From Rhizaria sp. SCN 62-66 (lineage: Eukaryota): DNA of 32,450 nucleotides. The first letter of the stretch is position 1. Each line of letters starts with the position of its first letter. The stretch lies in assembly GCA_001724265.1 (NCBI GenBank), contig MEDY01000070.1, positions 62,001-94,450 of the forward strand, in the 5' to 3' direction. The notes below the pieces were generated by a model, which was not told where the DNA came from, searched no databases, and worked only from the letters and a program-made list of their open reading frames with translations. The position numbers were made by a program, and so were the translations under genes. This document shows, one piece after another, positions 1,514 through 29,436 of this stretch.

Positions 1514-4500
1514 TTACTTCTTGTTCCCTTTCGTAGCATTCTTGTTCTCATCGCTGTCATAAGTGTTGCGGTTCGTAGGTGAAACATAGCGGAGTCCCAG
1601 TGCCACAAACACGTCCCGCTCCTCACGCACAAACACAGCTTTCCCCTTGGACACGGCGACACGTTTCTCGCGGTGCGCGGGTCGCAGCGCCGAATCAGAC
1701 AGCGACCAGCCCTTGAGGTGCGCAAGGTGGCGCATGGAACGGTTGAAGTAGTCCGAGCCCGTGAAATACAGCAGCGCGCACGGGAAGTGCGGCGCAGCGT
1801 AGAACTTGAGATCCAGTCGTCGGTTCACGCCTGACGCCTGCGGGTGCCACGGTGGCAACCGGCAGAAACCCATCCAAGTCGTGTCCTTACTGTCATCGGC
1901 GTCACTGGGCAGCATCCACAGCGGCGGCAGCTCCTCGGCGGCGCTCTTGTCGCCGGCAGCGCTCGAGTTGCTGGGGCTGAATCCAAACCGCGGGCTGTTG
2001 CCGGAAAGCGACTGCGACAGTGAAAATGAACGTGTCAGACGTTCGGCTTCGGCGCTCTCGGTCGCGCCTGCCCACATCGCCGCAGTATCTTCGCGGCTGC
2101 AGTTGTGTTTCTCCTTCTGCTCTCCCTTTGTCGAAGCGGTGGTAGCAGCAGCTCTGTTGGCCGCAATGAGCGCCCGCGCGCGCGCAACAGCGGCGGCAGT
2201 GCACGTTCGATGTGGGTCCGGAAAAGCGCCTTGTAGCGCTGCAGTAACCCACGGCATCGCCTCGATCCATTCACCGGCACTCCCATCTACATTGCGCTGA
2301 GCGATGGCTGATGCAGACTCTGCTACAGCAAGAATGCCATTACACTGTGCGCACCTGCCAGCGTCATCGTCACCGGTAGCCGCAGCGGTAGTCGCAGCGG
2401 CCAGAGCAGCAGGGCGGCGCGGCAGCGAGTTCGCAGACACAGCGTCCCCAAATGGCGAACTTGGAGTCAGCTTCACATCGGGCGCAATGGCAGTGAGCGC
2501 GTCGGGCCACTGTGCGCGCGCGTCATACGCCAACGCTGCGGCGATATCAGCAGCGCATGCTACAGAGGAGTTTGCATATGCAGGGGCATTGTCACTGCCT
2601 TTACGCTCAAAGTGCAGCGATACACCCTTACCTGCCGCCCAGCGTGCCCCCACCTGCGCTTTGCGCTCTGCAGTCGCGGCGGCAGCAGCAGCCGCAGCGG
2701 CAGCACCATTCGGATTGTTCTGGCAGCGGCAGCGACGACAGTCTGGCGCGGGCGGTGTGTTGGTGGCCTGTAGCAGCCAGAGTGTGGCTGTAAGGCAGCG
2801 CGCGCGCTTCGCCTCACCCTCAGGGCCGTCACCCCAGTCTGGCGACGTGACGAGCACGTCACAGTCGCCCGAGCTTTGCTTGCCACGACGGTAAGACCCG
2901 CAGCAAACGACGACGGCGCGCGGACACAGTGCGCGCACGCACTGGCGCACGCGCTCGACAATAGCCGCAACCTCTGCGCGCGGGATGCGCAACACTTTGT
3001 CGTCAGCCATCGCCAGGCCAACCGTCTGCGACGGCGCAAGCAGCTGGCTCGGCCGCGGGAAGTGCTGCATGTCCAGCGACAGCGGCGGCGCGTGCAGAAC
3101 GTAGTCAACTTCGACGTTGTAAAAACGCACGCCCCGATCAACCTTGACGTCGGGGTCCTTTGCTGCTACAGACGCCATGGCGGCCAGCGTGGTGACCGCA
3201 GCCGCGTTTGCTTGAGCGACGGCTGCTGCGGCCACGGAGGACACAGGGGAGACTGTAAGAGGAAGAAACTCGGCCACAGCAGGCGAAAAAGGAGTTAGTC
3301 CAACATTGCGACGTTCCTTAGTCACTGTGTTCCGCGTCGGGGCACCGAAGTCAGTAATCTCCAGATCACTGCCACTGTCGTCGCGAGCCACATAACCGCG
3401 TCGGACAGGCTGCACCATTTGGGTATTAGGAGCAGCAAAATTGCGCTTTAGTCCGCGGCTAGCTGTGTTCGCATCAGAAGCCTCAACAGCAGCAGCAGTA
3501 GTCGTACCGTCGTTGACAGCCATGACGCCGCTGGCACGGACCTTTGCCCACCGCGCGAGTGCGAACGGCGCGTGCCAGTCGAGCAGACGCGCGTAGGCCT
3601 CGTACTGTGCGTGCGTCACCATGCCGACGCCGACGACCACGCCGCTGCCCACGGTCACTCTGCTGCTCTCCGCAGCAGCAGAAGCGTCGCCGTGGATGAA
3701 TGAGATCACGTCGCGTCGACTGCCTTTAAGTCCAGGCAAGAGATCCCCCGCCACCGCAGACCGCATTGCGGCAGCGTTCGCCGCGGCTTTCAAACTGGCC
3801 CGATCACCACTGCCCTCGATAGGAATATTCCCACGCCCGTGCTGCTTCTTGACCTTGGCATCGGACTCGTGCTTGCCGCCGGATTGCCAGGCCGGCGGCT
3901 TCTGCCGGCCGCGGTTGAGACCGGCCTCGGACTCAGTCTTGCCCGCCTCCCCCAAGCGTACGCACTCGCGCTGGCTGCGCGAAACAGCGAGGCGAAGCTT
4001 GGCGATCGTGTCCAGACCGGCCGCGACAAGCCGGCTCGCGGTGGCCGGCCCCACGCCATGCACGCCGGCGTCGAGCTCCTTCATCGCGTTCCGGTGCGGG
4101 TCCGCCTCGCGCGCCGCCGCTTTGGAGCTGAAGCCCTTAACTAGGATCTCCTTGAGAGTCGACGCAATGCTGGGCCCAAACCCAGACACGCGCGCTCGCA
4201 GCGCGTCAATCGCGGCTTCAGAATCGATGGGGAAAAGCATCCGACGCAGCTTACGGGCGGCGTTCTGGTAGTTACGCGCGCGGTACTGGTTCGCTGGGTC
4301 AGAACGGTCTGAAGCAGCTATCGCGTGCAACAGCTCGAGCACCTCGCGCATCCTCTTGCTTAAGTCCGGAGCGCTCTCTTGCGTCCTAGGGGGAAACCAG
4401 TCCTGCTCGTTAGTCGGATACTGTATCACTGCGTTGTTGTTGTCCTTGTTGTTGTTGTTGCTGTTGTTGCTGCTGGTGGTGGTGTTGTTTTTGTCCTCAC

Positions 4501-6658
4501 TGTCAGCGTTAGGATCTGGTTCATCGACAAAGATCTCATCACCCTCGCCTCCGACGCGAGCATCGTCTCCGTCGTGAGCAGCTGCCGCGGCTCCATTGCC
4601 AGTCAGACTGTTGCTCTCGCTCTCCTGCCCAAACCCGTGCATGCTCATGTCATGTTCACCCAGTCGCTGGGGAAAAGTGACAGTCTCGTTCATGGCCTGC
4701 GTTGACGTCACAGGCATCAGCGGCGCAGCGTACGAGTATCCCATCGGACACCAAGGCCGGCTGACTCCGTCACTCCCCACGGCGCATTTGCGGCTATAGT
4801 GGGGGATTTCAGCGCCGACCTGGCACGCAAGCACCGTCACGAAACGCCGCTCCTGCGCGGCACGTTTGCGCCGGTCGTGCTCACGGTCGCTCACGCGTTC
4901 CGCAAAGGCGCCGGTTTGCGGCGGTAGAGTACTGCTCGCGGTGGGGGCCGCGCGCACGCGTTCAGCGGGTTCGGCGCTGCTGCCGCCAGTGGTCCTGAAC
5001 TTGCTGTTAAGGTAGTACTCGTCGTTGTCTGGCGGGCTGCGCGAGGACATGTCAACGCACGTGCCGAGGGGCAAGTGCAGCAGCGGGTTGAAGAGCAACA
5101 TCGGCAGCACGAATGCCGCGGCCTCCGCCTCACCGACCGCGGTTGCAGCCTCACCGTCGTCATCCCATTTCCAGACGTTGCAGTAATTGTCATCAGCGTC
5201 GGCGTCAACGGCAACCGCAACTGCAGCGTTCTCACGGGCGCCATCCTTGCAGTCCGCCAGCTTGATCTTCGCGGTGGACGTGACGAGAGGTGCTGGACGC
5301 CTCGGAAGAGGACTCAACGCAGACCCAGCCCTCGAGAGCGGCTCCAGCGCAGGCGGCATCAACTCCGAGTCCTCCCGTTGCAGATTCTCAGCGCGATCGT
5401 CAAAGGCGCAGTCCAGGTGCTGAAACTGCAGCGGCTGTTGTTGACCGTAAGATCGAGCCTCGTGCGCGGAGAGATTCGCAGAGCGCTGTGGCTGCGGTAA
5501 TTGCGGCTAGCAGAGCTGTGACTGCGGCAGTGCCGACTGCGAAAGCCCGTGCGACAGCGACATCGTGTCCGCGTCAAACGACGACGGCAGCGGCTCCGGC
5601 TCCGTCTCGCCAGCGCGACCGCTGGCGGCGCTCGCACCGCTGTCCGTGTCCCCATCGCGCATGACCGCGTTTCTGTCATTCATACGCTCATTCACAGTTG
5701 CGCGTGCGTCGCTAGCGCCAGAGTCCGAGTCCGAGCCGTTAAACATACCGTCGAGGTTGTCGTCGTGAGAGTGGTTTGTCGCAGTTGCGCCCACGGTCGT
5801 CGCAGCGGATACCGCCGGCGTCTTTGCTGTTGCACTGGATGTTTGCGGTTGTGTAGCCGCCACAGGCTCCGTCTTAACGCGCCTCTCTGCAGCCACCGTC
5901 GGCAGCACAGTTGCGGGAACAGGCGGCCGCACTGGCAAAGATCCTGAAGGCGTCTGCTCAAGTGCTGATTGCGGGCCACTGCTGCTGCTGCTGCTACTGC
6001 CGCTGGGGCTGTGGCTGGGACTACTAGCAGCGCCCGTGCGAGAACCGCTGGAGTTTACCACAGCGGCCCCATCGCCGTGCCCATCGCCGCGCCGCGGGAT
6101 GCACGCGTTCGCGACCTCGCGCGAGATTAGCACGGGCACGTTGACCGTCACCCACTGAGTGCGATCCGTGCCGTCCCGACTCGTCTTGGCGGCAGGGACG
6201 GCTGCGCCGGCGGCGAGGAGCCTCTGCGCCTCCGCGAGGTTGCAGATGCGTGCGGCGTGCGTGATCTCGAGCGAGCGCGCCTCCGCGGCCGCGATGACGA
6301 AGTCAGGCGTCAGGTAGCGGCAGTGTTGCACGCTGCGGGCACGCCAGAGCTTCAGCTTGCTTTCGATCGCCTGCGCGGCTGCGATGTCCTTCGCGGGCTT
6401 GTGCGCAGCCTCCAGCGCTGCGTGCGTGTGGTCGGGGGAGAAGACGACGTGTGTGACAGTGTTGCTCATAATCTTGGCGACTCTGCCGCCGCCGCGAGTG
6501 ATCTTCTACCTCAACCCCTCCGCCTTCCTCTCAGGCAGGCCCAGTGACTCCACTATAAGAAACTCACAGCCCGCAAACACCTCGCCAGCGGACACCCTAG
6601 GCGGGAAGCCCGGGGCCGGAGCTGCGTTTGGAGACGGTTGCGTCTGGGACGGCTGCAT
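1514..6658 (-). CDS. Family X DNA polymerase, Pol lambda-like (BRCT + 8-kDa/HhH + fingers + palm + thumb), about 1714 aa when two in-frame TAGs are read as sense
   Basis: Track ORFs 6506-6736, 5507-6469 and 1514-5362 share one frame, separated only by TAG at 6506-6508 and 5507-5509. First ATG at 6658. BRCT: VFAGCEFLIV...LR*KITRGGGRVAKIMSNTVTHVVF. HhH motifs SGFGPSIA and VHGVGPATA. Catalytic motifs GSYRRGKQSSGDCDVLVT and RRLDLK. ALLYFTGSDYFNRSMR. Thumb EERDVFVALGLRYVSPTNR. Ends in TAA. Confidence 0.92.
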
Positions 6659-7067
6659 TGTGCCCAACGTGTGGTGGGTCAAGCAAGCTCTTAAGAGTGG
6701 AGGCAACGCTATAAAACGGAGGAGAAAATCCGGCAAAACGAAAGTTTCAGAATGTTATATTTTGATAAAATGATTAAGCTAATGTTTAATATACAATATC
6801 TGGCGTATGACTTATTTAACGATTGGTTAAACGCAGATTTGATGGAATCGTTATCAATGGTTGCTGTGTCAAAGGCGGGCAGCGGGGCACCGAGACGAAA
6901 CGCCAGCGCGCCTGCCATATTTTGCTTCGAAATCTCGCAACCAAGTGACCGTTGGGACACATGCCAGTTTATGTCTTCACTTTTTCTGATATGATTTTTA
7001 TTATATTTTGATTGTACTTTACAGACCTACGAAGAACTTCCGCAACACCTCCAGTCGTAAACATACG

Positions 7068-10000: not shown

Positions 10001-11168
10001 CGAGACGCTCAGGAGGAAGCACCAAGAGGTACGCAATCTTGTGCGAAACATTCAGATTATATTGGACAGATCTTCTTACTTATTTCTCCTTTTATCATTA
10101 TAATTTTAACTCAATTATTTTTATTTTATCTCTTTTTGTTTTGTTAATCGGGATCTATAGGCGCTGGCGTGCCGCAGTCTGGGCCTGTCGTCCCCCCCCG
10201 GCCACGGCGGCGCCCCCGTATCTGCCGCGCGCCCGCTCGCCGCGGCCCGCAAGCGCCGCGCCCAGCGCCGTCTGCTGACGTCCCTGCGCGACTCGGGCAC
10301 GGCGTGGCAACAGCAGCGGCGCGCGCTGCTGGCCGTGACGTCGGAAGACCCGCACGAGCGCGGGGACGATGACCCTGACACGCGGCAGCTCTTCGCGCGC
10401 CTCGCGGGGCTGCGCGCCAGGGAGGCGCCCCACGCGCGCGCCGCGCTGCTGCGGCGCGCGGAGCGGGAGGCGCGCGCCGCGGCCGTGGGCGGCGGCGGCA
10501 CGGAGCGGATCATGGACTGCGCACTGAGTGGTGAGATTGGCGCCACGCCGCTCTTCCACGCGCTCCACTCGCAAACTCGCGATTATCGCGATTGCGGCGG
10601 TCAATACAGTCCTCCCCGCGCCCCGGCCGCGCCCCAGCAGCAGCGGCAGCAACAACAGCGGCGGCCTGCGTCCGCGGGCGGCGGCGCGCGCAGCATCGCG
10701 ACGGCGACTGGCGAGGCGACCTCGCTCCCGATGCCCCTCAACAGCAGCAACGGCGGCGGCGGCAACGGCGGTCAGCAGGGCAGGTGGCGGGACAGCCACT
10801 CGCTGTTCGCGCCCGCGCCCGCGGGCCCGCCGTCGCGCCCGCCCGCGCGCGCGCTTACTCCGCAGCAGGCGCGCGCGCGGTCTGCGGCGGCGGCGCGCGC
10901 GGATGTGGCCGCTCAGCTCGCCCGCCCCAGCGCCGTCGCCACAAACGCGGTCAACACTGCAGTCAACGCAGCCAACTCTGCCCGCGCTGCTTCAGCGGCG
11001 AGGGGCGGCGTGGGGCAGCTAGCGGACGTGTTTCCGCACCGGGAGCGTGCGGTGGCGGCGCTGGCTAGGACAGCGGCGCCGCGGGGCAATGCGCAGGCGC
11101 GCGCGGTGGCTGATGCGCTCGTTGATGCCGGCAAGCCCGGCGCGCCGTCTTTCATTTACAGCCGGTAA
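7068..11168 (+). CDS. Hypothetical low-complexity Ala/Gln-rich protein with coiled-coil-like segments, 2 exons (7068-10028, 10161-11168), about 1322 aa
   Basis: ATG at 7068. Removing a phase-0 GT-AG AT-rich intron joins ...LRRKHQE to ALACRSL... in frame with track ORF 10335-11168. Ends in TAA followed by AT-rich sequence. Confidence 0.8.
8524..8582 (+). repeat. Degenerate 12-nt tandem repeat encoding SFNT-SYNT-SYDT-SYNA-EYN
   Basis: agcttcaacact agctacaacacc agctacgacacc agctacaacgcc gagtacaac, within the CDS. Confidence 0.85.
10029..10160 (+). other. Spliceosomal intron (132 nt, GT-AG, phase 0)
   Basis: GAG|GTACGC ... T-rich tract ... CTATAG|GCG. Strongly AT-rich island between GC-rich exons; its removal restores the frame. 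Confidence 0.88.
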
Positions 11169-12836: not shown

Positions 12837-14579
12837 TCACTTCTGCTGCTCGGAAGCCAGCCCCATGCCCCGCATCAGCCCCAGCAGCTCCTTTTGACTG
12901 CCCCCGCTCGCCACACCGCCGCCCGCCGTCGCATTGTTCACCGCCGGAGCGTAGTTGCCGGCGGCGGGCCCAGCGCCCACAGTCGCCAGCTGCGGCAGCG
13001 GGGCCCGGCGCGCGCGCGCCCGCGCGACGCTGCCCGTGCTGGCCAGCGACGGCGCGGGCGCGTCGAACCCATTCCCGCTGCCGCCGAAACCGCTGCTGAT
13101 GCCGATGCCGCTGACACTGTCGCCGGCGGCGTTGCCGTTGCCGTAACCGTAGCCATAGCTATATCCATGGCTCGGACTGAGGCCATACGCGTCAACAGAC
13201 TGAAGCTGTTGCGGGGCATAAGGCTGACTGTACCCTGCGGTCTGACCGTGACTGTGCAATGTACTGAGGCTGTGGCTATGGCTGTGGGCAGCGGTCGCAA
13301 AGCGTGCAACACGAAGTGGTCGCTGATCTCCAGCGCTCGACTCAAACGCAACAGAATTCGACGAGCTCGCACCACTATAAGCGCCCACAGCACTTTTATT
13401 GTTGCTGCTGATGTTGTTGTTGTTATTGCTTGCAGCTGCGAGCCGACGTGCCGCGCCCCAGTCCTCGTCCTCATCCTCGTCTTCATAGTCATTGCTGTTG
13501 CCTGTCACCGACGGCGCAGCAGCAGCAGCGGCAGACGCGCCAGTTGCCGCCGCGCTGATGTCATCAACTTCATCGTCCTCGTCCTCGTTGTACAGCCTCG
13601 GCAACAGCTGACTCTGATTCTGGCTCTGCATCTGCACTCTCGCGCCCTTACTGGAACCAGCGGCTTCGCTGTACGCGTTGGCGCTGGCGGCGCGTGGGTC
13701 GCCGCGGCCCTCTTCATTCTTACCATCATCGCCGACCACAAATCCCCCTTCACCGCCAGCGCCAGTGCCTGCGCCTGCGCCGGCCTCGGCCTCTGTCTCG
13801 GCCTCGGCCTTGGCGGCGGCGGCCTCGCGGCGGCGGCGACGTTCGGCCAGCGCACCACCGCCAACGCCACCGCTGGCCTCTGCAACTCCCGTGGAGGTCG
13901 CTGAGGGCGCGGAGACAGAGCCCTCGGAGCTGCCCAGCCGCATCGCCAGCGGCAGCAACGGGGACGCGTCGACCCCGCCACTTTGCGCTGCTGCCGCCGC
14001 CCCCGCAGCATCAGTGGCAGCTGCTGCAGCAGCAGCAGCAGCGTTGGCGCCGAAAGCAGCGGAGGTGGCCGGTGCGGTCGTAGGTGTGACGAGGACCGAG
14101 TCCGTGGCACTATCGTAGTACACAAACACGTCCTCTTCGTCCTCCTGGTTGCGGTCGCCCGTTGTGCGGCTGCCAATGATGCTGTTGCTGCTGTGGGGAT
14201 TGACGGCGATATCGCTGTCGCCACCACGCGCCCTGCGGCCCGGCACGCGTACCGCAGGCGTACTAGGCCCCGCAGGCGGGAGCAACGCGCCCGTCAGAGC
14301 CGCGACGTACGCCGTGTCGCCCGCTGGCAGGACGGTTGGCCCGTATACCCCGCGCCCGCGCAGAGCACACGGCACGCCGGTGAGCGCGAAACACGACCCT
14401 GCCGTCAGCCACGACTCTGCGCCGTCGCCGCTACCGCCGCTGCCGCAGTGTGTGCCGGTGGCGATGCTCGCAACGTCGGCAGCGTCGGCCGCGGCGTTGG
14501 CGTTGGCGACAGCGTCCGCGGCCGCCGCGCTCGCGATCGCAGCAATGTCCCCGCACACGCACGCGCACTGCTGCTGGTG

Positions 14580-14634
<55 letters not shown>

Positions 14635-17600
14635 ACGCCGCCGCCGCCGCCGCCGCCGCTTTGCGCGGTCGATGAGCCCGAGTCGGCAACGAGCGGCAAC
14701 TCCAGTGGGTGCCGCTGCGGATGCGGGCGAGTGAAGATCTGCATCGGCGCCTGGCCAAAGTGCTGGATCTGCGTGCGCAGCGCCTGTCGCTAGCTGCGGC
14801 TCGGCACTGCAGTCAAATCTACCGCGCCCTCGTAGACGACGCTGACGTAGGCGTTGTCCGCGGCCACGGCGGCCGGCCCGCGCTGCTTGGCGCCGAACGT
14901 CAGGTCGATCCAGTGGTGCAGCCGCGCGGAGACGTACTCGCTCTCGAGGGCGGCGCGGAGCACGCAGACGACTTCTTCGGGGCTAGCGGCCCACGACGGC
15001 AGCGCCACTGCGCCGACTCTCGCGCCCACAGACACGCCCACAGCACTGCCACTGCCGCTGCCGCTGCCGCTGCCCCTGCTCCGGCCCTGGCTCTGGCTAT
15101 GGCCGTGGCTGTGGCCGTGGCTGCTATGGCTGTTGGAGTCTGGTTGGAGACGACCGGGCGCGAGCGCGGAAGGGTTGCGCAAGAGCTGCGGAAACGAGTA
15201 CATCTCCGGCACTAACTCGCGGCCGGATCCGGAGCTGAGCAGACAGCTCTCCCACAGCCTCGGCAGCGAGGAGAAAAGCCTGTCCGGGCAGTCAAGGCGG
15301 CCGGCCTGGAGCTCGGCGTGGAGCGAGGTGAAGGGCTCCAGCCGCAGCAGCAGGTGCAGCACCGACGCCGGCGAGCTGTAGAAGGAGCCGAAGTGGAAGG
15401 GCGCGCTCGTGTAGTCAGCCGCCGCCGCAGCAGTCGCAGTCTTCGCCGTCGCTGCGCCAACCGAAGGCGCTGCGCTTGCCGCGGTGGCGAAGGCGGCGGA
15501 GAGCGCGGCGGAGGACATCGAGTGGCGCATGCCCGCGTTGGCTCCCGCCGCAATCGCGGAAGCAGGCAATGTGCGCGCCGCGGAGGGCGACGGAGCAGTT
15601 GCCGTGCCGTTAGTGCCGTTGCCGCCGTAAGTTGCACTGTTAAAACCGCCGCCGCCTCCAGTGGTGGACATCGAGACTCCGCGCGCTCGACCGGCGCCGA
15701 CGCGGAGCCCGGCGTCAGGCAGCAGCGACGTCGCCGACACTGCGGAGCCCGCGACTGATCCAGCGCCAGCAGGGGCCGCGGGGGCCGCGGATGGGCTGTG
15801 CGCCGCGGCGGCCGCAGCGGCCTCGGCGAGGCTCTCGAAGCGCGCGCGCGCCGCGGCCCTGCGCGACGGCACGAGCGCGCCGACGGGCCTGCTGAGGTCG
15901 CGCATGATCGCGGGCAGCAGCGGGTGGGCGTCTGACGAGGCGAGAATCAACAGCAGGTCGCGCGCAGTCAGCCAGCGCACACGCTCGCGCCGGTCTGAGC
16001 TCTCGTCTCCCGTCGCGGGCGGCGCGGCAGGGAAGTGCGCCAACGTCCAAGGAAAGATCATGTACTGGCCGAGGTCGTTGTAGCCGCGGCCGGCGACGGT
16101 GTTGAGGCAGATCAAGTACTGCCAGGTGGAGATCTCGCGCCGCGCCCACCGTGCGGTCACGCCGGAGCGCAAAAGCAGGTCCAGGGGCGACCGCGAGCAG
16201 TGTGCGAGCAGACGTGGCGGCCGCAGAGGCAGGAAACAGCGCAGAAACGCGTTGCGCGCGGCTGTATCGGCGAACGCGAAGAAGAACGCGCGACTCAACT
16301 CACCGGCGTTGCTGGAACTCGTGACCGTGGAACTCGTGCCCGTACGAGAACTCATGACCCCACCGGCACTGGGTGCCCGGCCTTGAGAGGCTGCGTTGGT
16401 GACCGTGGGCGCAGGGAAGTCGGCGAAGACCTCAACTGCAGACCGCTGGAGTAAGTACAAGCGGCGGTACACTGCGCGCACGCAGCCGAGGGGGATTGAG
16501 AATCCCCACTGCAGCGGTTGTTGATCACTGTCCACGTCATCAACACCTGCGTCAACACCGCCAACGCCAGCGCCAGAGCCAGCGCCAGTGACAGCGTTCA
16601 TAGCGCCAGCACCAGCAAGGAGGAGTGAGGCAGCGGCGGCCAACGGTGTGCCGGCGCGTATGGCGTCCAGCAAAGGGCTCTTATACGGGCCCGGCAGACG
16701 CGCGCGCGCTCCGGCGCCGGCACGCGCCCGCGGCCGCGCCCCACGGTCACCAGCCATGGCCACGACGCCACCGCCGCCGCCGCCGCTGCTGCTGCCGAAG
16801 CTGCTGCTCGAGGCGTCAAGCGCAGAGGCAGAGGCCGAAAAGCTGCCGCTACCGTTGGCGCTGCCGCTGAGGTTGAAGCTGCTGCCGCTGGTGCCAAGGC
16901 TGCCGGTGAAGCTGCTGCTCGGACCCAGCCCCGCGCCCGCAGCGAAGCAGCTCTCGTCCTCCGCATCGCCCTTACCGCCGCCGGCGCTGATATTGCCAGT
17001 GCGTAGCGGGTGGAGGAGCTGTGGCGGGAGAGCGGGCGCGTACGGTGCAACGGGGTCGATGCACGCCACGGCGCTGCGAGCAACGCGTGCCAAAGCGGCG
17101 GTGGTTGCAGCGGCCACGGCGGCGTCCGTCGCAGCGTCAACAGCTGCCACAGTATCAGTCGCCGGGTCAAGGTTTGGCGGCGACCCGATGTGTTCAAACT
17201 CGCTGTCGACAGTCGACATCGCTGTTGCATTATTTGCAGTCTTTACATTCTTTGCATTCTTTGCGGCGGCTCTATCCCTCGCTTTGGCGACGAGGGCGGC
17301 CAACGAGGCAGCGTACTCGTCCCAAACCCACTTTGCGTCATCCACACCACTGCTGCTGCCGCCGCCGCTTCTCTTCGCCGCAGCCGCAGCCTCCGAGCCG
17401 CTCGCCACACTGGCGCTCGCTACACCGGCGCTGGCAGTGGCGGCACTGGCCGCGGCGGCGATCACATTCGCGGCGAACGCAAGCGCCGGGTCTGACCCCG
17501 GTGCGCCCGCGAGCGCCGCCGCCACCGCAGTCGCCACCGCCTCGTCAGCCTCTGCAATCGCGCCCAGGGCCGTGGTTGCCGCCATGACGACGGCGTCCGG

Positions 17601-19323
17601 GTCGGCGTGGAAAGTTAAGCCGCCGCGGGAGAGAGTGAGCGCGCCCGGCGTCGGTCCCAGGGGCGTCACCAGCGTCGCAGGCGCGGAGAACAGCGGCGCG
17701 GCGTGGAAAATAGCGGTCGTAGCAGAAGCACCGTTCGTGGTGTTTGCAGCGGGGCCAGAGAGGGCGGGCGGGAGGGACCAGGCGGCGCCGAACGGGAGAC
17801 AAGCGGCGCGCGCGCGGTCCGGGAGCTCATAGGGCGACACGGCGGGGCGCGCGGCAGCGGCGGCCAGCGCGGCACGCGCGGGCGCGAAGGTAAGGAGCGA
17901 GGGGAACGACGGGCCTGCGTGGGTGGACCCAGTCGTGGAGCCAGTCGCAGAGCCGGTCGCAGAGCCTGCCGCAGAGCCAATGGCGGAGCCTGCGATTGAG
18001 CCAGCGGGGGTGACGGCTCCTCCTGACGCGATGCTAGGACCAATGCCGGCGCCAGCAGCAACAGAGCCAGTGTAAGGGCCTGGGTTAGGGTAAGGGTAAG
18101 GGCCCGAGGCGGCGGAGGTCGGCGTCAACGCGGCCAGAGGCGAGTGCGAGTGCCTGTATCCAACGCCAACGCCAGCGCCCGCGCCAGCACTCGCGCCAGC
18201 AACACCAGCAGCTGGATTGGAGCCCGAGGTCATGAGTTCCCCGTCGGGAGCCGCGAGGACTGGCGCGGCGCCGGTGACCGAGGCGCGGTGACGCGCGTGC
18301 GGAGGCGGCCGCGACTGCAGCAGAATCTCGGACGCCGACGGCAACGGAGGCTGCTGCTGAGACTGCGAGAGCGCACTGTGTGCCTGCGACTGCGGGGGTG
18401 CAGAGTAATGGTCAGCGAGAATGCTCGGCACGGCGAAAACGCGCGTGATCCCCGTGTTCTCCAGCATCAGCGACTGCGACCGCATCGCCTGCGCGCGGAG
18501 CGACTGCGGCTGCGCGTGCGTCTGCGGCTGTGCCGGCGACTGCGAGAGAGCGCCGGCGAGCCCTGCCCCTGCGCTGGCCCCGGGGCCGGGTGCAGAGGAG
18601 CCCAGCAGCACCGGCGCCGGCGGCAGCGCAGACCCTGCCCCTACCGCTACCACACCCCCACCGGCGCTGACGCTGGCAGTGCGATTGCCCACAGCGCCAA
18701 CACCACCCCCCATAGCGCCAACACCACCCATCGCACCGCCGCCGCCGCCGGTGGCGTTCGTGGGGGAGACGAGGGGGCTGTGCAGACGCGGGCTCTGGCC
18801 GCCGCTGCCGCCGCTGCCGTAGCCGTAGCCGTACTGCGTGTACGCACTGTACAGCCCATAGCTTGAAAAATTTGCATGGCTTGCGTTGTTTGTGGCGTTG
18901 TGCGGCACCGAGAGAGGCGACGGCGGCGCCGGAGAATGGCCGTAGCCGCCGAGCGCGGGCTGCGGGTGCGCGAGCGCGAGCGCGAGCACGCGCCCCGGGG
19001 ACTGCGGCTGCGCCTGCAGCGAGTGAGAGTGTGGCAGCGGGGGGCCAGACGCCGCGGCGGCGGCGGGGGCGGCGGCAGGTCCGTAGCGCGGGCCGGCGCC
19101 GCCGTTGCTGCTGCTCACACTCGCGGGGCCATACCCGCCGTAGCCGCCCCCGAGACCACCGACGCCAAGACTGAGACTGGGGCCTGCAGCGGAGGCGGAG
19201 GCGGAGGCGGAGAACGAGGGGTGCGGGCCGGCAAAGGGGCTAGCGCCGGGGCTGGGGCCCTGGGAGGCTGGCAGCACGCGCGGCGCGGCCCCCGCACCGC
19301 CTGGACTCGCAGCGCCGCCACCA

Positions 19324-19360
<37 letters not shown>

Positions 19361-19454
19361 AGGAGCCAGCAGCAGCCGCAGCAGCGGTCGGCTGCGGGGG
19401 CAGGGCGGCGCTGTGTGCGCGTTGGCGGGTGCCGCCGCCCGGGGGCATGTTCAT
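12837..19454 (-). CDS. PH-BEACH domain protein (neurobeachin/LYST/FAN superfamily), about 2205 aa when the in-frame TAG at 14790-14792 is read as sense; start uncertain
   Basis: PH-BEACH motifs VYRRLYLLQRSAVEVF and AFFFAF. BEACH motifs TARWARREISTWQYLICLNTVAGRGYNDLGQYMIFPW, RDLSRPVGAL, PFHFGSFYSS, RELVPEMY, LESEYVSARLHHWIDLTFG and YEGAVDLTAVPSRS*RQALRTQIQHFGQAPMQIFTRPHPQR. Track ORFs 14790-19493 and 12837-14744 are the same frame. First in-frame ATG at 19454. Ends in TGA. Confidence 0.92.
14568..14633 (-). repeat. (CAG)n microsatellite encoding Q18-H-Q3, preceded by a (GGC)n poly-Gly run
   Basis: Direct read of the ctg repeats on the + strand, inside the BEACH CDS. Confidence 0.95.
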
Positions 19455-20191
19455 GGACCACAAGTGAGCGCTAATGCTGCTGTCTGTGGCCAAAGGCGCG
19501 CAACAGGGACGCCTTGGAGTGGGATGAGAGGGGAGTCTGCAGTGTGAGACGGTGTTAAAGGAGGGACAGGAAATGGAAGGTTAGAGCGCCACAGAAAGAT
19601 AAAATGAAGTGAACACGGCCGTTTTATAGTTTTGCAAAAACAATCGCAATAAATATGGCGCTACTGGCGATCATGGTTCTTCAGACGACAAATTGATTTG
19701 TTGTTGCTTGTCAACACCGCCCGTTGGTCGCCGGCTTGGCGCGACCGTGAGCAGGGCCGAACGAACATTTTCCGAGACCTTTATTATCGTTTTCAGTCGT
19801 AATCAGCACATCTCAGTACCGCCAGTAAAAACAAGCGCCATTTTCCCACATAATTTCTTTATTACGTTCCATTTTTCTCACGGTACGCATGGCTATTTCG
19901 TATTTTTTGTACAGCGTCGACTGCCTCTCCCGAAGCAGCGAACACTCCTTGTTAAAGCTTCTGTCCTGCCACAGTTCCCAGTGTCCTGGCTTTTCAGAGG
20001 GGGAAACCCCCAGTATCCTTTCGTTATCTTCCTGTTACCTGCCGCGTGCAGCTTACAGGCTGTCCGTGCTCGTGCTGTGACCTCTTTTAGCAGGCCTCAG
20101 CAGCGCACTTTTTCTTCTCCCGGATCCCGATCTCGCCAGCTCACGAGGCACCGCTCCAGGCTTCTCAAAGCCACATAGCCTTCGTCTGCCG

Positions 20192-23100
20192 ATGCAGCCG
20201 GCCCCGGACCCTTACGCGGGCGACCCTGACGAAGCCATCACCCTCGATACATACTCGCAACGCCTCGTACGTGCCTGCCCCACCGCGACAATCTTCGCAA
20301 GCTTGCCGCGCATTTCTATATCTGGATCCATCACATGCTTTTGCTTAACCAATAAGCACGAACTCTGACATTCCATGTTTCTTACCCGCTTGGCTTTGCT
20401 ATCGGCTCTTTAACACATCATGTTCCTTCAATCCCATCATCACGCTGCCTCCCGCTCACTTCCGCCCGCTCTTATCTCTCCCCCTGCGCCTTTTCTCGCC
20501 CACACAGGCGCGCGACGCGATCAAGGCGCGCTGCCTGGAGTCCCTCGAGGAGTTTCACTCGTGCACCTACGCCCAGGGTTACATCACGCAGCCCGTGTTT
20601 GTCTGCCTCACCTGTCAAGCCGCCTCAGACGCCGCTAAGCGCGCCAAGTAGCGCGCCTACAGCTCCAGCACGGCTTCGTCGCCGCCGTCCTCATCATCGT
20701 CCTTAGGCGGCAGTGGCACTGGCGCTGCGAGCGCGGGCGCGGGCGCGGGGAGCGTGGGGAGTGTAGAAGGCACTGAGGAGGACGACTACTCGACTGCGTT
20801 CGGTTTCTGCCTCGGCTGCTCCACCAACTGTCACCTGGGCCACGACGTCGTCGAGCTTGGTGACCGCACTCTCTTCCGATGCGACTGCGGCAACTCGCGC
20901 TGCCCACAATCGCTTCCGGCGCATCTCCTCCCTGTCGCAGCAACTGGCGCCGACACTACTGAATCATCATCATCACCATCATCATCCTTGTCGTTGTGTG
21001 ACTCGGAGTCGGCGCTGAGGCCGTTCACATGTCAGCTGCAGCCGCACAAGGCCGCGCTCAACGACGCCAACGCGTACAACCACAACTTTCGCGGCCTCTT
21101 CTGCCGCTGCCGCCAGCGGTACGATGCCTCGCGCAGCATGCGCGGCTGCATTCGTTGCCAGGACTACTTCCACGACGACTGCGTGCGCCTGCCGCCGCCG
21201 CCGCTCTCGCTCGACGCGCTGCCGCCCGCGCTGCGCCGTTTGCTTCACCGCCCCGCCGTCGCCGCCCGCGGTAAAGCCGCCAAAGAAGCGGCCGCTGCCG
21301 CCGCAGCAGCCGCAGTTGCTGCAGCGGGCGGGACTGAAGCCGTCTTGACAGAGGGCGGCGCCGCAAGCAAAGCCGCTGCGTTGCCAATGGACGACGTCGG
21401 CAGCCTCGCAGAAGAGGTTAAGTCCGAGTCGAAATCCGACGTCTACGCCGGCATCGAAGTCTTGGATGCCGACACCAACACCGCTGCGGCCGCGCCGATG
21501 AGCGAGGCCGAGGCCGCCGCCGCCGCCGCCGAAGCCGACGCCGCGGCGGCGGACCTGCTGGCGGTGCTCGTGGGGCGCGTGTGGCAGGACTACTCCGACG
21601 GCGAGGCCCACGTGTTCCTGTGCGCCGAGTGCGCGGTCGCGGCGCCGCTGCTTGCGTCCTACGCGCTGGCCAACCCGCCGCTGCTGGCCGAGGCCGTGGG
21701 CGGGTGTTCTCGCGTGTACCTCCAGCGTACCCGCCTGCTCGAGGCGCTCATGGACCCGCGTGTCGACATCTCGGGCGCCCAGCTGCAGCAGTTGCCGCCC
21801 GCGGTGGTGACCGGGCGCAAGGCCATCCACCGACGCCACGCCGCGCGCGCGGCCAATGCGGCGGCGCTCGCGGCGGCGAGGGCGCAAGAAGCGGCCGCCT
21901 CTGCTGCCTCTGCTGCCGCGAACACAACAGCTTCGGTGTCTAGCACAGCGACTGAGGCTGAGAACGAGACTGCTGTGACAGCGCCCGCGCCCGCCCTCAC
22001 GGTCGCCCCTAGCGCGCACTCGGTGTCCGGCGACGGCGCCGCCGCGACCGCTGCCAAAGCCGCCCACGCCGCCTCTGTCGTCGCCGCCGGCGCCGGCAGC
22101 GGCAGCAGCAGCAGCAGCAGTGTGCGCGTGGCGCGCTCCCGGGGCGACGCGGGCGCTGAGGCGGGCCACCGCAGCCGCCGCAGCCGCCTCCTGGACGGCG
22201 GGGACCAAGACCAAGACCAGGCCCTGCGGCTCAACCACACCCACACGCGCAGTAGTGACGGCAGCGGCAACGGCAGCAGCAGCGACGGTGAGGACGGCGA
22301 GGACGAAAGCGGAGACTCTTCTGCGGCGATCAGCCCAACTAACGCGCCGAGCGCCGGCGTCACTGCCGCAGACGACGAAGACGAGGACGATGATGAAGAG
22401 GAAGGCGAGGCTTTGCTGGTGCGGCTGCCGGCGCCGCGGCCGCCCAACGGCAGCGGTAACGGCAACGGCACCAGCCACGGCGACTGGAACTGGGCAGCGC
22501 TGCGCTGTTCAGACTGTCCACCCGACGGCGACGGCGACGGCGATTGTGACGGCGATGGGTCAGGTTCGCCCTGCACGCCCGTCACCTCGGCCGCCGCCGT
22601 GGCCGCCGCAGCGGCCGCCGCCGTGGCCGCTGGCGGAGGCCCGCTCGCCGCCTCCGCCGCCGCAGCAGGCGCAGCGTCGCCCCACACGATGCGGTGCGCG
22701 CTGCACGCGCGCGCGCACACGGGACCCTGCGATAATGATGACGACAACTACCACTGCCAGCTCGTCGCGCACTGCCTCACGTGCCCCATGCTGACGCCGA
22801 GCAACTGCACGCTGTCCGTCTGCTCCGCATGCGCGGTGCGCCACGCTGAGCCCATCTACCAGGAAGTGTGTCTCGTGTGCGCGCTCACGTGCCATCGCGG
22901 CCACTTGCTCGTGAACTGGCGCGTCGACGGCGCGTATTGCGACTGCGGGACGGTCGACGGGTCGCGGTGTCTTGTCGGCGAGGTCGATGACGTTACCACG
23001 ACGCCCGCGCCCGTCTCCCCCGCGTACGCGTCCTGTTGCGGCTCCTGCTGCTGCTCCTGCCCGCGTCCGGACAAAACCTCCCCTCAGTCTCAGCCTCATC

Positions 23101-25874
23101 AGCAGCCTCAGCAGCAACAAGGTACGCTCTCGTCGTCTGCGTTTACCTCAGCTCCTTCAGCGTCATCAACATCCGCCCCTGAGACCGTATCATCCTCATC
23201 CGACGCTGATGCTGCTGCTGCTGTTTCTAGCACTGCGACTATAGTTGTTGCTGGCCACGGTGCAGAGGGCCACCGCGCGTGCACCGCCTACCCCGCGGGT
23301 CCGTACTTCTGCCGCGGCACTGCCGTCTCTGCGCTGCCGCTGCCGCAGGATCGCTGCATGCGTCCGCCGCCGCTGCCGCCGCTTGCCGCGCTGGCCGCCG
23401 CGCGCATCGCCTCCTCGGGCTGCACCGCCATCGACCCCCAGCCTTTCCCCGCCACCGCTACCGCCACAGCCACAGCCGGCGGGGCGGCCACGGCCGGTGG
23501 GGCGCCGGGCGCAAGCGCTGCGTCTCCGGCTGCGGCTGCGGGTGGGTTCGACCTGCCGCTCTGTACTGCGTGGCGCCGCCGGCTGTGCATGTGCGCGCGC
23601 TGTCTCCCCGAGCTCACCGCGGCTGGCCTCGCGCCCGCGCTCCGCGAGCCCGAGACGAGCGCGATTGCGGCCAAGCTGCGCGCTGTGGACGAAGTGCTCG
23701 ACAGCGACATCGACTTCAACAACGTTCCCGTCGCCGTCGTCGCGGAGGCTGTCGCGCGCGGGCTGCACAGGATCACCGCCGCGGCCCCCCTCGCAGGACT
23801 TATCCCAGTCTCCGCCACTGCCACAGCTGCCAACGCCTACGCCACAACAGCGGCGGCGGCGGTGGCGACGGCGACGACGACGTCCGCCGCGCGTGGCGCG
23901 ACGAGCACCGCGCACGGCGACGCAGTCAGGGTCGCCGGCACGAGCCCAGGCGACAGCAGCAGCAGCGGCAGCAGCGGCAACGGTGGTGGCGGTGGTGGCG
24001 GTGGCGGCGGTGGCGGCGGTGGCGTGCCGAGCCAAGTCGTCAGCGACGCTGTGCGCACTGCGATGGACCTCATCTCCGCCGCCACGAACGCTGCCGCGTC
24101 GCTCAACGGCACGCCGCCGACGCACCCGTCCGCGGGCACCGCGCTCTTCACGCCAGCGGCAGCCATCGCCACAGCGCCGCCCCAGGTCTCCTCCACGCAC
24201 GCCGGTGTGTCCGCAATGTCCGCGCCCACAGCTGCGACTGGGATCGCGAACGCAGTGTCGGCGAACGCTGTGTCTGCGGTGGCGATCCCGCAGCGTGTCC
24301 CGGCGCCCAGCCCCGCGCCGCCCGTCGTTGCCGCCGCCAGCCTCGGTCTGCGCCCACTGTCTCCGCAAAACTCGGGGTCTAGCTCTAGTTCTAGTTCTGG
24401 CTCTGGATCTGCATCTGGATCTTGCTCTGGTGTCGGCCTCTCGGCGGCACAGGCGCAGTCGATGCTGCAGTCGCAGTCTTTGCCGATGCCGCTGCGTCGC
24501 GTGGGCGTGCTCGCCTCGGCCTCGGCGGCCAACGCGGCGCTCAGCCCCGCGCTCGCGCTCGCGGCGCGCCACCTCTCCCTTGCAGGAACCACCGGTACCA
24601 CGGGTGTCCCGAGTACCGGCGCGGGTCCCTTGGGTACCGGCGCGCTGTTGTCGTCGGTCTCCGCGCTGTCAGCGTTGAATCGCGGCACCACGGTGTCGCT
24701 CGCGCCCGTGGCTGCCGCCGTCGCCGCCGCCGCAGCCACGACGATCCCGCCCTTCAACTCACAGCAGCTGCAGTCTGCGCAGGCCGCACGGTCGGTGGCC
24801 TCGGCCACAACAGCGGCGGCGGCGTCGGCGGCGGCGGCCCGTCAGTCGCGCGCGGCGTGTATCGTACAGACGCGGCCACCACTCAACTTGCTCTGGACGC
24901 CGCAACAGCTGCAGGCCGCGCCCGCGCCCGCGCCGCTGCTCTTTGCGGAGGCCGCGGCGGCGCTGGTGGACCGCTCGAAGCGTGCCGCCGCCGTCGCCGC
25001 CGCGCGCGCCGCCGTCTCGGCCTCCGCGCCCGTGTCGCCCTCCACAGCGGCAGCATCAGCAGCAGCGACGGCGGCGTCAGGTGAAGAGCGTTTTGTCTCG
25101 TACGGCGAGGCTAGCAGCGCGATCGCCGCGGCGTTGCAGCCCCCAGCGCCGCATTCTGTTGCGGCCTCGTCAGTCATATCGCTGCTTAACTCGGCCACAA
25201 GCACCTCGAGCAACACAGTGAGCAGCGCAGCCGCGAACAGCGCTGCGCTGACGTACGCGCCCGGCCGCTCTTCCGAGGCCGCGCAAGCGCGCGCGCAGAA
25301 CCACAAGTGGAAGCGCCACCCTGCCGGCGCCGGCATCGGCGGCGACGGGCTGTCGCGTCTCGGCGACGTGCTTGCACGCCAGTCACGGCACCGCGCCACC
25401 GCCGCGCACGCCGCCGTTGGCGTTCCTCTTGCGCCACACTCGCAGCAACAGCAGCACTATAATCACCACCAGATGGCGCAAGACCAGTCGGAGCAACTGT
25501 CGTCGTCATCGTCGTCGTCGATGTCGAACCTGCACGCGAACAGTGGCGCTGGCGCTGGCTCTGGTGCTGGCTTACCCGCTTCTCTGCTGGGCCTCGCATT
25601 CGCCGGCAGCAACAGCAGCAGCAATAGCGGCAACAGCAGCGGTGGCGGCGGTGTGGAAGCGATGGTCGAGCTCTACTCGCGCGTGTTCACCGCCGTCGTC
25701 GCCGAGGAGCTTTCCCGCGCGAGCGCTGAGCTCGGCCCCGGAGCCGTAATGACGAAGGCCATGATGGAGGCCGTGCTTGCCCGCGCCGGCGAGCGGCTGC
25801 GCGAGCTCAAACGCGCCCACGCGCAGGCGCTGGACGACGCGCAACACGACGTTGAGGACCCTTCATACTAGTAA
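20192..25874 (+). CDS. UBR7: UBR7/Mlo2-like E3 ubiquitin ligase (UBR box + PHD + extra UBR-like box), 2 exons (20192-20266, 20508-25874), about 1813 aa with TAG read as sense
   Basis: Exon 1 MQPAPDPYAGDPDEAITLDTYSQRL. Exon 2 has CTYAQGYITQPVFVCLTC...AKRAK*RAY...FGFCLGCSTNCHLGHDVVELGDRTLFRCDCGNSRC (UBR7-type UBR box), NAYNHNFRGLFCRCRQRY...CIRCQDYFHDDC...FLCAEC (PHD), and WRRRLCMCARC plus a C-terminal helical segment typical of UBR7. Internal TAG at 20649-20651. Ends TAC TAG TAA. Confidence 0.88.
20267..20507 (+). other. Spliceosomal intron (241 nt, GT-AG, phase 0)
   Basis: CTC|GTACGT ... pyrimidine tract ... CACACAG|GCG. Joins the ATG exon in frame to the UBR-box exon. Confidence 0.8.
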
Positions 25875-29424: not shown

Positions 29425-29434
29425 AAAAAAAAAA
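29425..29434 (-). terminator. RNA polymerase III oligo-T terminator (T10)
   Basis: Run of ten T on the minus strand, 2 nt downstream of the tRNA discriminator base. Confidence 0.8.
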
Positions 29435-29436
29435 CA

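What the first reader, a model, noticed from the sequence alone, without database searches (positions are those of the whole stretch)
1514..25874. Non-standard nuclear genetic code: UAG alone reassigned to a sense codon (probably Gln); UAA and UGA remain stops
Seen: four internal in-frame TAGs in three unrelated conserved genes (Pol X 6506-6508 and 5507-5509, BEACH 14790-14792, UBR7 20649-20651). Each is flanked by in-frame coding sequence, catalytic and Zn-ligand motifs are intact, and these genes show no frameshift or internal TAA/TGA. Gene ends in the window are TAA (1330, 1514, 11168, 12288, 25874) or TGA (12837, 27354, 28832); none relies on TAG alone. Established: UAA and UAG are nearly always reassigned together (ciliates, hexamitid diplomonads, some ulvophytes). 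Decoupled codes are rare, e.g. UAG=Gln in the fornicate Iotanema spirale and UAG=Leu in an uncultured rhizarian. Inference: this organism uses a UAG-only code, possibly an independent origin, needing a tRNA with a CUA anticodon and an eRF1 that ignores UAG. Pseudogene decay is unlikely because in such CG-rich DNA it should also give CGA>TGA stops and frameshifts.
Basis: partly seen in the sequence, partly recalled or inferred. Interest (0 to 1): 0.96.

Follow-up and report, generated by a model that had tools for sequence, protein, structure and literature searches.

The report
In-frame TAG codons, uncultured wastewater eukaryote
Three large, otherwise intact genes of an uncultured GC-rich flagellated eukaryote from wastewater reactors carry TAG "stop" codons in the middle of conserved protein domains, so this organism most likely reads TAG as an amino acid, a rare kind of genetic-code change that still needs the rest of its genome to be proven.

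Summary
Reading TAG as sense fuses the fragments into single frames of 1746, 2247 and 1841 residues with no frameshift.

- **Domains span the TAGs.** Three of the four lie inside or split a conserved domain: BRCT of a Pol lambda-like polymerase, the BEACH domain, and a UBR box.
- **Coding continues.** Frame-specific GC3 stays at 0.85-0.90 after the TAGs in the two regions scanned (Pol X N-terminus, BEACH), while true gene ends run into DNA of 0.25-0.53 GC.
- **Other stops behave normally.** Internal TAA and TGA number 0 in 8,711 codons. No complete gene (0 of 8) ends on TAG alone.
- **Independent runs agree.** Assemblies from other studies carry the TAGs, and a polyA-RNA run covers one.

UAG read as an amino acid is the best explanation (about 0.7), probably Gln. 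The evidence is five codons in 32 kb. No genome is held, so tRNA(CUA), eRF1 and genome-wide terminator use are untested.

The "only TAG" argument is weak by itself (P 0.12-0.16). UAG-only codes are already known in several lineages. This is a probable new member of a known kind, with UAG still very rare.

The parts
6506..6508 (-). In-frame TAG no. 1, codon 51 of the Pol X gene, inside its N-terminal BRCT domain
   Evidence: One search gives the context. Pfam BRCT scores 25.9 bits (cut-off 21.3) over residues 26-93 of the N-terminal 117 aa, spanning the TAG at residue 51. The TAG is unchanged in contigs of runs X3 (5835-7653, 0 differences) and X4 (6027-6821, 3 differences, all elsewhere).
5507..5509 (-). 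In-frame TAG no. 2, codon 384 of the Pol X gene, in a Pro/Gln-rich low-complexity linker
   Evidence: In-frame GC3 is 0.75 between the two TAGs. No listed piece of an independent run covers this site.
14790..14792 (-). In-frame TAG no. 3, codon 1555 of the BEACH gene, 12 residues before the conserved FGQxPxQ motif (FGQAPMQ here) near the end of the BEACH domain
   Evidence: The Pfam BEACH stretch 1517-1623 matches profile 169-276/276 and spans it. The alignment to neurobeachin and LRBA is gapless. All 149 of 149 homologues continue past this column. Run X6 has a piece 14761-15037 with 0 differences.
20649..20651 (+). In-frame TAG no. 4, in a 62-residue low-complexity insertion that splits the UBR box of the UBR7-like gene
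   Evidence: Homologue P0163 (zf-UBR 41-105) aligns its residues 36-59 before the TAG and 66-169 after it. X3 contig 19393-20896 has 0 differences. A polyA-RNA X5 contig covers 20664 with at least 98 letters on each side, and no change is listed at the TAG.
25869..25874 (+). TAG-TAA tandem at the end of the UBR7-like gene
   Evidence: It is ambiguous: either ...YQ-stop under TAG=sense, or a TAG stop backed by TAA.
1514..6658 (-). Pol X (Pol lambda-like) gene: BRCT, long linker, 8-kDa/fingers/palm/thumb domains; ends TAA
   Evidence: Pfam palm 1e-19, thumb 3.4e-19, HHH_8 7.6e-08. The best solved match is DNA polymerase lambda, E 1.1e-30.
12837..19454 (-). BEACH-domain gene of 2205 codons; ends TGA (CGA in run X3)
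   Evidence: Pfam BEACH 1.6e-74.
20192..20266 (+). Exon 1 of the UBR7-like gene (MQPAPDPYAGDPDEAITLDTYSQRL)
   Evidence: This is my reading, checked. There is no ATG in the exon-2 frame upstream of the UBR box.
20267..20507 (+). Spliceosomal intron of 241 nt: GTACGT donor, pyrimidine tract, CACAG acceptor; GC about 0.52
   Evidence: It is inferred from sequence. Splicing was not seen in reads.
20508..25874 (+). Exon 2 of the UBR7-like gene (UBR box plus PHD-like finger, long low-complexity tail)
   Evidence: zf-UBR 24.5 bits (cut-off 25.2), PHD E 0.0099.

Best explanation
The organism is an uncultured eukaryote with cilium genes, few introns, GC-rich coding DNA and AT-richer spacers, recurring in bioreactor and wastewater metagenomes. 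It translates UAG as an amino acid, most likely glutamine, while UAA and UGA terminate.

**Shown:**
- TAG sits in frame inside conserved domains of three intact genes.
- Coding signal continues in frame after the TAGs in the two regions scanned.
- The TAGs are in the DNA of more than one strain and study.

**Inferred:**
- A tRNA with anticodon CUA (probably derived from tRNA-Gln) decodes UAG.
- eRF1 has lost or weakened UAG recognition.
- The change is evolutionarily young, or UAG is still selected against. UAG makes up 5 of 8,711 codons, against 267 CAG and 64 CAA.
For: 1. Reading TAG through gives single frames of 1746, 2247 and 1841 residues without frameshift.
2. BEACH: the alignment to neurobeachin and LRBA is gapless across the TAG. 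All 149 of 149 library homologues continue through the TAG column into the invariant FGQxPxQ...HPxR end of the domain. The only record that stops there is the window's own truncated protein P0013.
3. BRCT: the Pfam hit is above cut-off (25.9 against 21.3 bits) and spans the TAG. The best solved match of the catalytic part is Pol lambda. That Pol lambda carries an N-terminal BRCT is recalled, not from a call.
4. UBR box: the two halves lie on either side of the TAG and are contiguous in homologue P0163.
5. GC3 stays at 0.85-0.90 in the same frame for hundreds of codons after the TAGs in the Pol X N-terminus and BEACH. The 60 nt after the eight real stops have 0.25-0.53 GC, and three spacers measured have 0.3-0.5.
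6. Internal TAA and TGA number 0 in 8,711 codons. No complete gene (0 of 8) ends on TAG alone.
7. TAG 6506 and TAG 20649 are identical in X3 (another study). TAG 6506 is also kept in X4, a strain with 3 SNPs in the same 795-nt piece. TAG 14790 is in an X6 piece.
8. The polyA-RNA run X5 has zero depth in spacer 19457-20123 but covers 20566-20762 without a listed change at the TAG.
9. No plausible intron can remove a TAG. The only donor-like hexamers nearby lie inside conserved BRCT or BEACH codons, and local GC shows no intron-like dip.
Against: - The sample is tiny: 4 internal sites plus 1 terminal TAG.
- 'All TAG' has P 0.12-0.16 under a plain nonsense-mutation null.
- 0 of 8 TAG-only terminators is weak. 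My estimate of P is about 0.1-0.17, assuming a normal TAG share of 20-25%. That share is recalled, not measured.
- UAG is about 50 times rarer than CAG and 13 times rarer than CAA, far below neutral expectation for a settled synonymous codon.
- One gene ends TAG-TAA. In strain X3 the BEACH stop is lost and the next in-frame stop is TAG. Both fit UAG still terminating in some contexts.
- Site 5507 has no independent read support among the listed pieces. For X4 at 20649, one of two differences in the piece is not listed.
- RNA data are assembled contigs, not raw reads, and splicing was not seen.
- The only tRNA in the window is Leu(CAA).
- The amino acid is not determined.
Confidence: 0.7

Rival explanations
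1. UAG has a dual or leaky meaning. It is still a terminator at gene ends but is read through at internal sites by a suppressor or near-cognate tRNA. This would be an ambiguous or context-dependent code, or an early intermediate of a reassignment, not a clean one.
For: - In-frame UAG is very rare: 5 of 8,711 codons, against 64 CAA.
- The UBR7-like gene ends TAG-TAA.
- 3 of 4 internal TAGs are followed by C. That C is a leaky context in eukaryotes is recalled knowledge.
- In strain X3 the BEACH TGA is CGA, and the next in-frame stop is TAG, 11 codons on.
Against: - 0 of 8 complete genes rely on TAG alone.
- The sites lie in essential domain cores (BEACH end motif, BRCT, UBR box). Low-efficiency readthrough would cost most of the product.
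Confidence: 0.17
2. UAG is an ordinary stop, and the three genes carry nonsense mutations. They are decaying pseudogenes or dispensable alleles in this population.
For: - TAG is the expected commonest nonsense codon here, at 59-63% of possible nonsense mutations.
- The listed strain differences in these genes are not clearly biased to synonymous changes. Of 24 changes inside my coding models, 9 are synonymous and 15 are not. This is after dropping 7 clustered rows and 2 changes that fall in leader sequence.
Against: - There are four nonsense codons but no frameshift in about 5,700 codons of three adjacent genes.
- Strong in-frame GC3 follows the TAGs in the two regions scanned.
- The TAGs are shared by strains from different studies.
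- polyA-RNA contigs cover the genes but not the spacer.
- The genome is compact, with spacers of about 60-770 nt, which leaves little room for three large dead genes in a row.
Confidence: 0.07
3. The TAGs are artefacts or are removed before translation, through assembly error, RNA editing of UAG, or short introns containing them.
For: A GT..AG stretch of 24 nt surrounds the BEACH TAG (my reading of the sequence printed). One X4 difference near 20649 is not listed.
Against: - Independent assemblies carry the same letters.
- The BEACH alignment is gapless, so removing 8 residues would break it.
- The one credible intron is 241 nt with GC about 0.52 and a GTACGT donor, unlike the sequence around the TAGs.
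- No change at 20649-20651 is listed in the RNA run.
Confidence: 0.03

Closest known systems
Iotanema spirale (Fornicata): nuclear UAG = Gln, with UAA and UGA as stops
   Same: A non-ciliate eukaryote in which UAG alone is sense and UAA keeps its stop function. Gln is the likeliest meaning here too. It is named in passages of PMC11687900. The original report is recalled, not read.
   Different: The organism is unrelated as far as can be judged. This one has GC-rich coding DNA and was found in wastewater and bioreactor metagenomes. Gln is not demonstrated and UAG is very rare.
Phyllopharyngean ciliates and Protocruzia: several independent UAG-only reassignments, Gln among them
   Same: UAA and UAG are decoupled and UAG is captured repeatedly, showing that the change is evolvable. 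Source: PMC11687900, search listing with the start of the abstract and two Discussion passages.
   Different: This window shows long genes at 0.59-0.72 GC on a chromosome-scale contig of 220 kb, and a conventional intron. That ciliate genomes are mostly AT-rich is recalled.
Uncultured rhizarian (UAG = Leu) and the green alga Scotinosphaera (UAG = Ser)
   Same: Both are UAG-only nuclear reassignments outside ciliates (passages).
   Different: The amino acid differs. At the BEACH site Leu is possible (26 of 149 homologues; neurobeachin and LRBA have Leu) but Ser is not seen (0 of 149).
Ambiguous stop/sense codes (Condylostoma, Parduczia, karyorelicts, Blastocrithidia)
   Same: A stop codon is read as sense internally while termination still occurs at gene ends. 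This is the model for the main rival. Source: search listing only, PMC4967479 and 10.1101/2022.04.12.488043.
   Different: Those codes involve two or three stop codons and frequent in-frame use. Here only UAG is involved, at 0.06% of codons.

Membership tests
UAG-only variant nuclear code (UAG sense; UAA and UGA stop) | In-frame UAG inside conserved genes, colinear with residues of homologues | tested here: met
   BEACH is gapless and 149 of 149 homologues continue. BRCT spans the TAG above the Pfam cut-off. The UBR-box halves flank the TAG.
UAG-only variant nuclear code (UAG sense; UAA and UGA stop) | UAA and UGA never in frame, and used as terminators | tested here: met
   There are 0 internal TAA or TGA in 8,711 codons. 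Gene ends are TAA in 5, TGA in 2 and TAG-TAA in 1 of 8, each followed by 60 nt of 0.25-0.53 GC. This covers the window only.
UAG-only variant nuclear code (UAG sense; UAA and UGA stop) | UAG absent (or nearly so) as sole terminator genome-wide | tested here: inconclusive
   0 of 8 complete genes end on TAG alone, and one ends TAG-TAA. The sample is too small and no genome is held.
UAG-only variant nuclear code (UAG sense; UAA and UGA stop) | A tRNA with anticodon CUA | not testable with these tools
   The only tRNA in the window is Leu(CAA) at 29436-29518. The rest of the genome is not available.
UAG-only variant nuclear code (UAG sense; UAA and UGA stop) | eRF1 altered in its stop-codon recognition motifs | not testable with these tools
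   eRF1 is not in the window, and no route leads to the organism's other contigs.
UAG-only variant nuclear code (UAG sense; UAA and UGA stop) | UAG retained in mature mRNA | tested here: inconclusive
   A polyA-RNA run X5 contig covers 20566-20762 with no change listed at 20649-20651, and X5 has zero depth in the spacer. These are contigs only, with no raw reads, no splice joint seen and the other three sites not shown.
UAG = Gln specifically (NCBI table 15-like) | UAG columns dominated by Gln in homologues | tested here: inconclusive
   At the one alignable site the counts are E 52, Q 28, L 26, M 12, D 12, K 5, T 4, I 3, R 3 of 149, with no W, Y or S among the nine commonest residues, which are all that were printed (145 of 149). 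The Pro/Gln-rich context at 5507 and CAG as the commonest one-step neighbour by transition (266 codons) favour Gln only weakly.
Family X DNA polymerase, Pol lambda-like with BRCT | Palm, thumb, fingers and HhH domains, catalytic Asp motifs, N-terminal BRCT | tested here: met
   Pfam palm 1e-19, thumb 3.4e-19, HHH_8, lambda fingers. Pol lambda is the best solved match at 1.1e-30, with GDCDVLVTSPD and RRLDLK aligned to its motifs. BRCT scores 25.9 bits.
BEACH-domain protein | Full BEACH domain | tested here: met
   Pfam BEACH 1.6e-74 in three stretches separated by low-complexity insertions. Neurobeachin and LRBA match at E about 2e-62.
UBR7-like E3 ligase | UBR box followed by a PHD finger | tested here: inconclusive
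zf-UBR scores 24.5 bits, just under the 25.2 cut-off, because a 62-residue insertion splits the box. PHD has E 0.0099. The arrangement matches homologue P0163, which has zf-UBR at 4.5e-13 plus PHD.

The most novel reading that the evidence does not exclude
This is a code change caught early: an independent, recent capture of UAG (as Gln) in a GC-rich, intron-poor flagellate lineage unrelated to ciliates and fornicates.
- UAG is still about 50 times rarer than CAG.
- TAA remains the main terminator despite coding GC of about 0.59-0.72.
- The nearest sampled relative (B9 protein 56% identical, locus L003) shows no internal TAG in about 4,900 codons, and one of its genes may end on TAG.

Such an organism would let the order of events (loss of TAG terminators, tRNA(CUA) gain, eRF1 change) be read from closely related wastewater strains. 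It would also be a candidate type of host for the TAG=Gln giant viruses noted elsewhere in this scan.
Probability: 0.45. Interest if true: 0.8.

Novelty: new member of a known kind. Interest (0 to 1): 0.64.

Why it matters
UAA and UAG almost always change meaning together. Each lineage that splits them is a natural experiment on how release factor and tRNA pools co-evolve.

- **An early or costly stage.** Here UAG would be sense in a GC-rich non-ciliate genome while still very rare. That stage is seldom observable.
- **A recurring organism.** It appears in reactors of several studies, so DNA, RNA and proteome data could be gathered.
- **A practical consequence.** Public protein records of this organism are already cut at the TAGs. 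P0013 ends at the BEACH TAG, and P0012 is the piece between the two Pol X TAGs. Standard-code annotation of this lineage is therefore wrong wherever TAG occurs.
- **An untested lead.** Earlier notes of this scan describe soil giant viruses that read TAG as Gln and lack a known host with that code.

Tried and rejected
- **Whole genome:** none is held. The record behind relative L003 cannot be searched.
- **More DNA of the organism or close kin:**
  - The BEACH domain against metagenome contigs matched 146 pattern stretches, with 0 relatives.
  - The B9 alignment against species genomes gave 0 relatives.
  - An exact 40-mer against species genomes gave 0 matches.
  - The B9 alignment against metagenome contigs gave 61 loci. 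Only L001 (4 kb, inside the window's 3' part, no TAG-bearing gene) is the same organism.
- **Nearest relative L003/L002** (56% identity, 0.52 GC): no internal TAG in about 4,900 codons. One gene ends TAG, or TGA 10 codons later. At the window's rate about 2.8 would be expected, so P(0) is about 0.06 (my arithmetic). This is uninformative about when the change arose.
- **Pol X N-terminus against the protein collection:** only the window's own fragment P0012 was found.
- **AlphaFold of the BRCT region without an alignment:** mean pLDDT 46.6, too poor to search with.
- **Taxonomic placement:** the ESM Atlas on the B9 protein returned only animal-dominated clusters. Cluster look-up gave no names. 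Rfam found only the tRNA. The organism remains unplaced.
- **Strain SNPs:** no clear synonymous excess in these fast-evolving low-complexity genes.
- **Parts of the stretch without a listed independent piece:** 5450-5834, and 14790 in X3, X4 and X5. I treat these as no evidence either way.
- **Earlier findings of this scan:** nothing on this genome or on look-alike stretches.
- **Literature:** three searches found no report of a UAG reassignment in a wastewater or GC-rich non-ciliate eukaryote. Supplements were not consulted.
Full report
**What the window is.** The first 26 kb have 0.59-0.72 GC and the last 6 kb have 0.46-0.53. Long frames lie on both strands, separated by short AT-richer spacers.

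Recognisable genes:
- a Pol X polymerase, with DNA polymerase lambda as best solved match (E 1.1e-30);
- a BEACH-domain protein (1.6e-74);
- a UBR-box/PHD protein;
- a UBA protein;
- a ciliary B9 protein (1.3e-48).

The UBR gene has no ATG before its zinc finger in the long frame. A 25-codon first exon (20192-20266) joins in frame through a 241-nt intron with a GTACGT donor and a pyrimidine tract plus CACAG acceptor. This is my reading of the sequence. Splicing was not seen in reads.

So this is a cilium-bearing, intron-poor eukaryote. It recurs in bioreactor, wastewater and activated-sludge runs of several studies. No genome is held and I could not place it taxonomically.

**The observation.** All four internal TAGs are at the stated places and in frame. 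Under table 11 the frames break exactly there. With TAG read through they fuse into 1746, 2247 and 1841 residues (stop to stop) with no frameshift and no TAA or TGA.

In nine gene models (8,711 codons) I count 5 in-frame TAG: four internal and one directly before the TAA that ends the UBR gene. Internal TAA and TGA number 0. Of eight complete gene ends, five are TAA, two are TGA and one is TAG-TAA. None is TAG alone.

**Are the TAGs inside coding sequence?** Yes.
- **BEACH.** The TAG lies 12 residues before the conserved FGQxPxQ motif (FGQAPMQ here).
  - The alignment to neurobeachin and LRBA is gapless across it.
  - An exhaustive search listed 150 proteins. The window's own record (P0013) stops at the TAG, and all 149 others continue.
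- **BRCT.** The N-terminal 117 residues of the Pol X gene match Pfam BRCT above cut-off (25.9 against 21.3 bits) over residues 26-93, with the TAG at residue 51. Weak PDB hits are all BRCT domains and are colinear.
- **UBR box.** A homologue with a clean UBR box (P0163, zf-UBR 4.5e-13) aligns its residues 36-59 upstream of the TAG and 66-169 downstream. Here the box is split by a 62-residue low-complexity insertion that holds the TAG.
- **Fourth TAG (5507).** It lies in a Pro/Gln-rich linker.
- **Composition.** GC3 stays at 0.85-0.90 in the same frame after the TAGs in the Pol X N-terminus and BEACH, the two regions scanned. The 60 nt after the eight real stops have 0.25-0.53 GC, and three spacers measured have 0.3-0.5.
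- **Introns.** Donor-like hexamers near the TAGs fall inside conserved codons, such as GAG-TAC-GTG in the BEACH ESEYVS motif. Local GC shows no intron-like dip.

**Are they real letters?** Contigs of other runs were laid on 5450-25449.
- X3 (a different study) has pieces 5835-7653 and 19393-20896 with 0 differences. These cover TAG 6506 and TAG 20649.
- X4 (a third study, a slightly different strain) has 6027-6821 with 3 differences, all elsewhere. It also has 20392-20870 with 2 differences, one at 20664 and one not listed.
- X6 has 14761-15037 with 0 differences, giving 29 letters on one side of TAG 14790.
- The polyA-RNA run X5 has zero depth in spacer 19457-20123, where the DNA runs have 6-7. 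An X5 contig reaches at least 98 letters either side of 20664, with no change listed at 20649-20651.
- Site 5507 is not covered by a listed piece.
- All of these are assembled contigs, and the output lists only the best-supported rows.

**What chance and decay would give.** With this codon usage, TAG is 59-63% of all possible nonsense mutations, because CAG (266), GAG (256) and TCG (201) abound and CGA (22) is rare.

Better arguments against decay:
- There is no frameshift in about 5,700 codons of three adjacent genes.
- Codon-position bias is intact after the TAGs in the two regions scanned.
- The TAGs are shared between strains and studies.
- RNA covers the genes but not the spacer.

Strain SNPs are uninformative. 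Of 24 changes inside my coding models, 9 are synonymous and 15 are not. I dropped 7 of the 40 listed rows, which were clustered in X5 near contig ends, and set aside 2 changes that fall in leader sequence.

**Which amino acid?** This is not settled.
- At the BEACH column the 149 homologues have E 52, Q 28, L 26, M 12, D 12, K 5, T 4, I 3, R 3 (nine commonest residues printed, 145 of 149). Neurobeachin and LRBA have Leu.
- Trp, Tyr and Ser are not among those residues.
- Gln is favoured only by the Pro/Gln context at 5507 and by CAG being the commonest neighbour one transition away.

**How settled is the change?** UAG is 5 of 8,711 codons, against 267 CAG and 64 CAA. That is far below what a long-established synonymous codon would reach. 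Three further points bear on this:
- One gene ends TAG-TAA.
- In X3 the BEACH stop TGA is CGA, and the next in-frame stop is TAG (11 codons on) or TGA (16 codons on).
- The nearest relative I could fetch (L003, B9 56% identical, 0.52 GC) has no internal TAG in about 4,900 codons, and one gene ends on TAG or 10 codons later on TGA.

These facts fit either a young reassignment or a dual-meaning codon.

**Comparison with the known.** Two Discussion passages of PMC11687900 list UAG-only or decoupled codes:
- an uncultured rhizarian (Leu);
- Iotanema spirale (Gln);
- Scotinosphaera (Ser);
- Protocruzia tuzeti (Gln);
- phyllopharyngean ciliates (two independent Gln cases, among other UAG reassignments);
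- a ciliate with UAA=Lys and UAG=Glu.

This case works like those. Membership is met for in-frame UAG in conserved domains and for UAA/UGA behaviour. It is inconclusive for terminator use, mRNA retention and Gln. It is untestable here for tRNA(CUA) and eRF1. Three literature searches found no report for a wastewater or GC-rich non-ciliate eukaryote.

**Verdict.**
- It is a probable new member of a known kind, interesting mainly as a possibly early-stage case in an unsampled lineage.
- Interest is 0.64, pending the genome.

Noticed in passing
window 12837-12839 (-): In run X3 the first base of the BEACH stop codon differs (TGA becomes CGA). That strain's frame runs on 11 codons to a TAG or 16 codons to a TGA.
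   Followed up: partly
window 25875-32450: GC falls from about 0.7 to 0.46-0.53. The stretch 25.9-28.1 kb holds no convincing gene, and the frames there (26480-26971, 27148-27756, 27354-27740) lack coding signs.
   Followed up: partly
window 29436-29518 (-): tRNA-Leu(CAA) is the only RNA gene found. It is an ordinary UUG reader, not a UAG suppressor.
   Followed up: yes
window, all gene ends: TAA ends 6 of 8 complete genes (counting TAG-TAA) although coding GC3 is 0.68-0.90. This is a strong preference for the AT-richest stop in a GC-rich genome.
   Followed up: no
window 14790-19454 and 5510-6505 (-): Public protein records of this organism are cut at the TAGs. P0013 (1550 aa) ends at the BEACH TAG, and P0012 (320 aa) is the piece between the two Pol X TAGs.
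   Followed up: yes
window 20616-20801 (+), and BEACH 14661-16193 (-): Long Ala/Ser/Gly-rich insertions sit inside conserved domains. One of 62 residues lies inside the UBR box, and several of more than 100 residues lie between BEACH blocks.
   Followed up: no
window 30348-32450 (+): An open-ended gene for a Thr/Ser-rich protein with an N-terminal hydrophobic signal-like segment. It has no Pfam match and lower GC than its neighbours.
   Followed up: no
L003 1-20585: The nearest fetched relative (B9 56% identical) has 0.52 GC and different neighbouring genes around B9, including an AGC-type kinase-like frame. Synteny with the window is not kept.
   Followed up: partly
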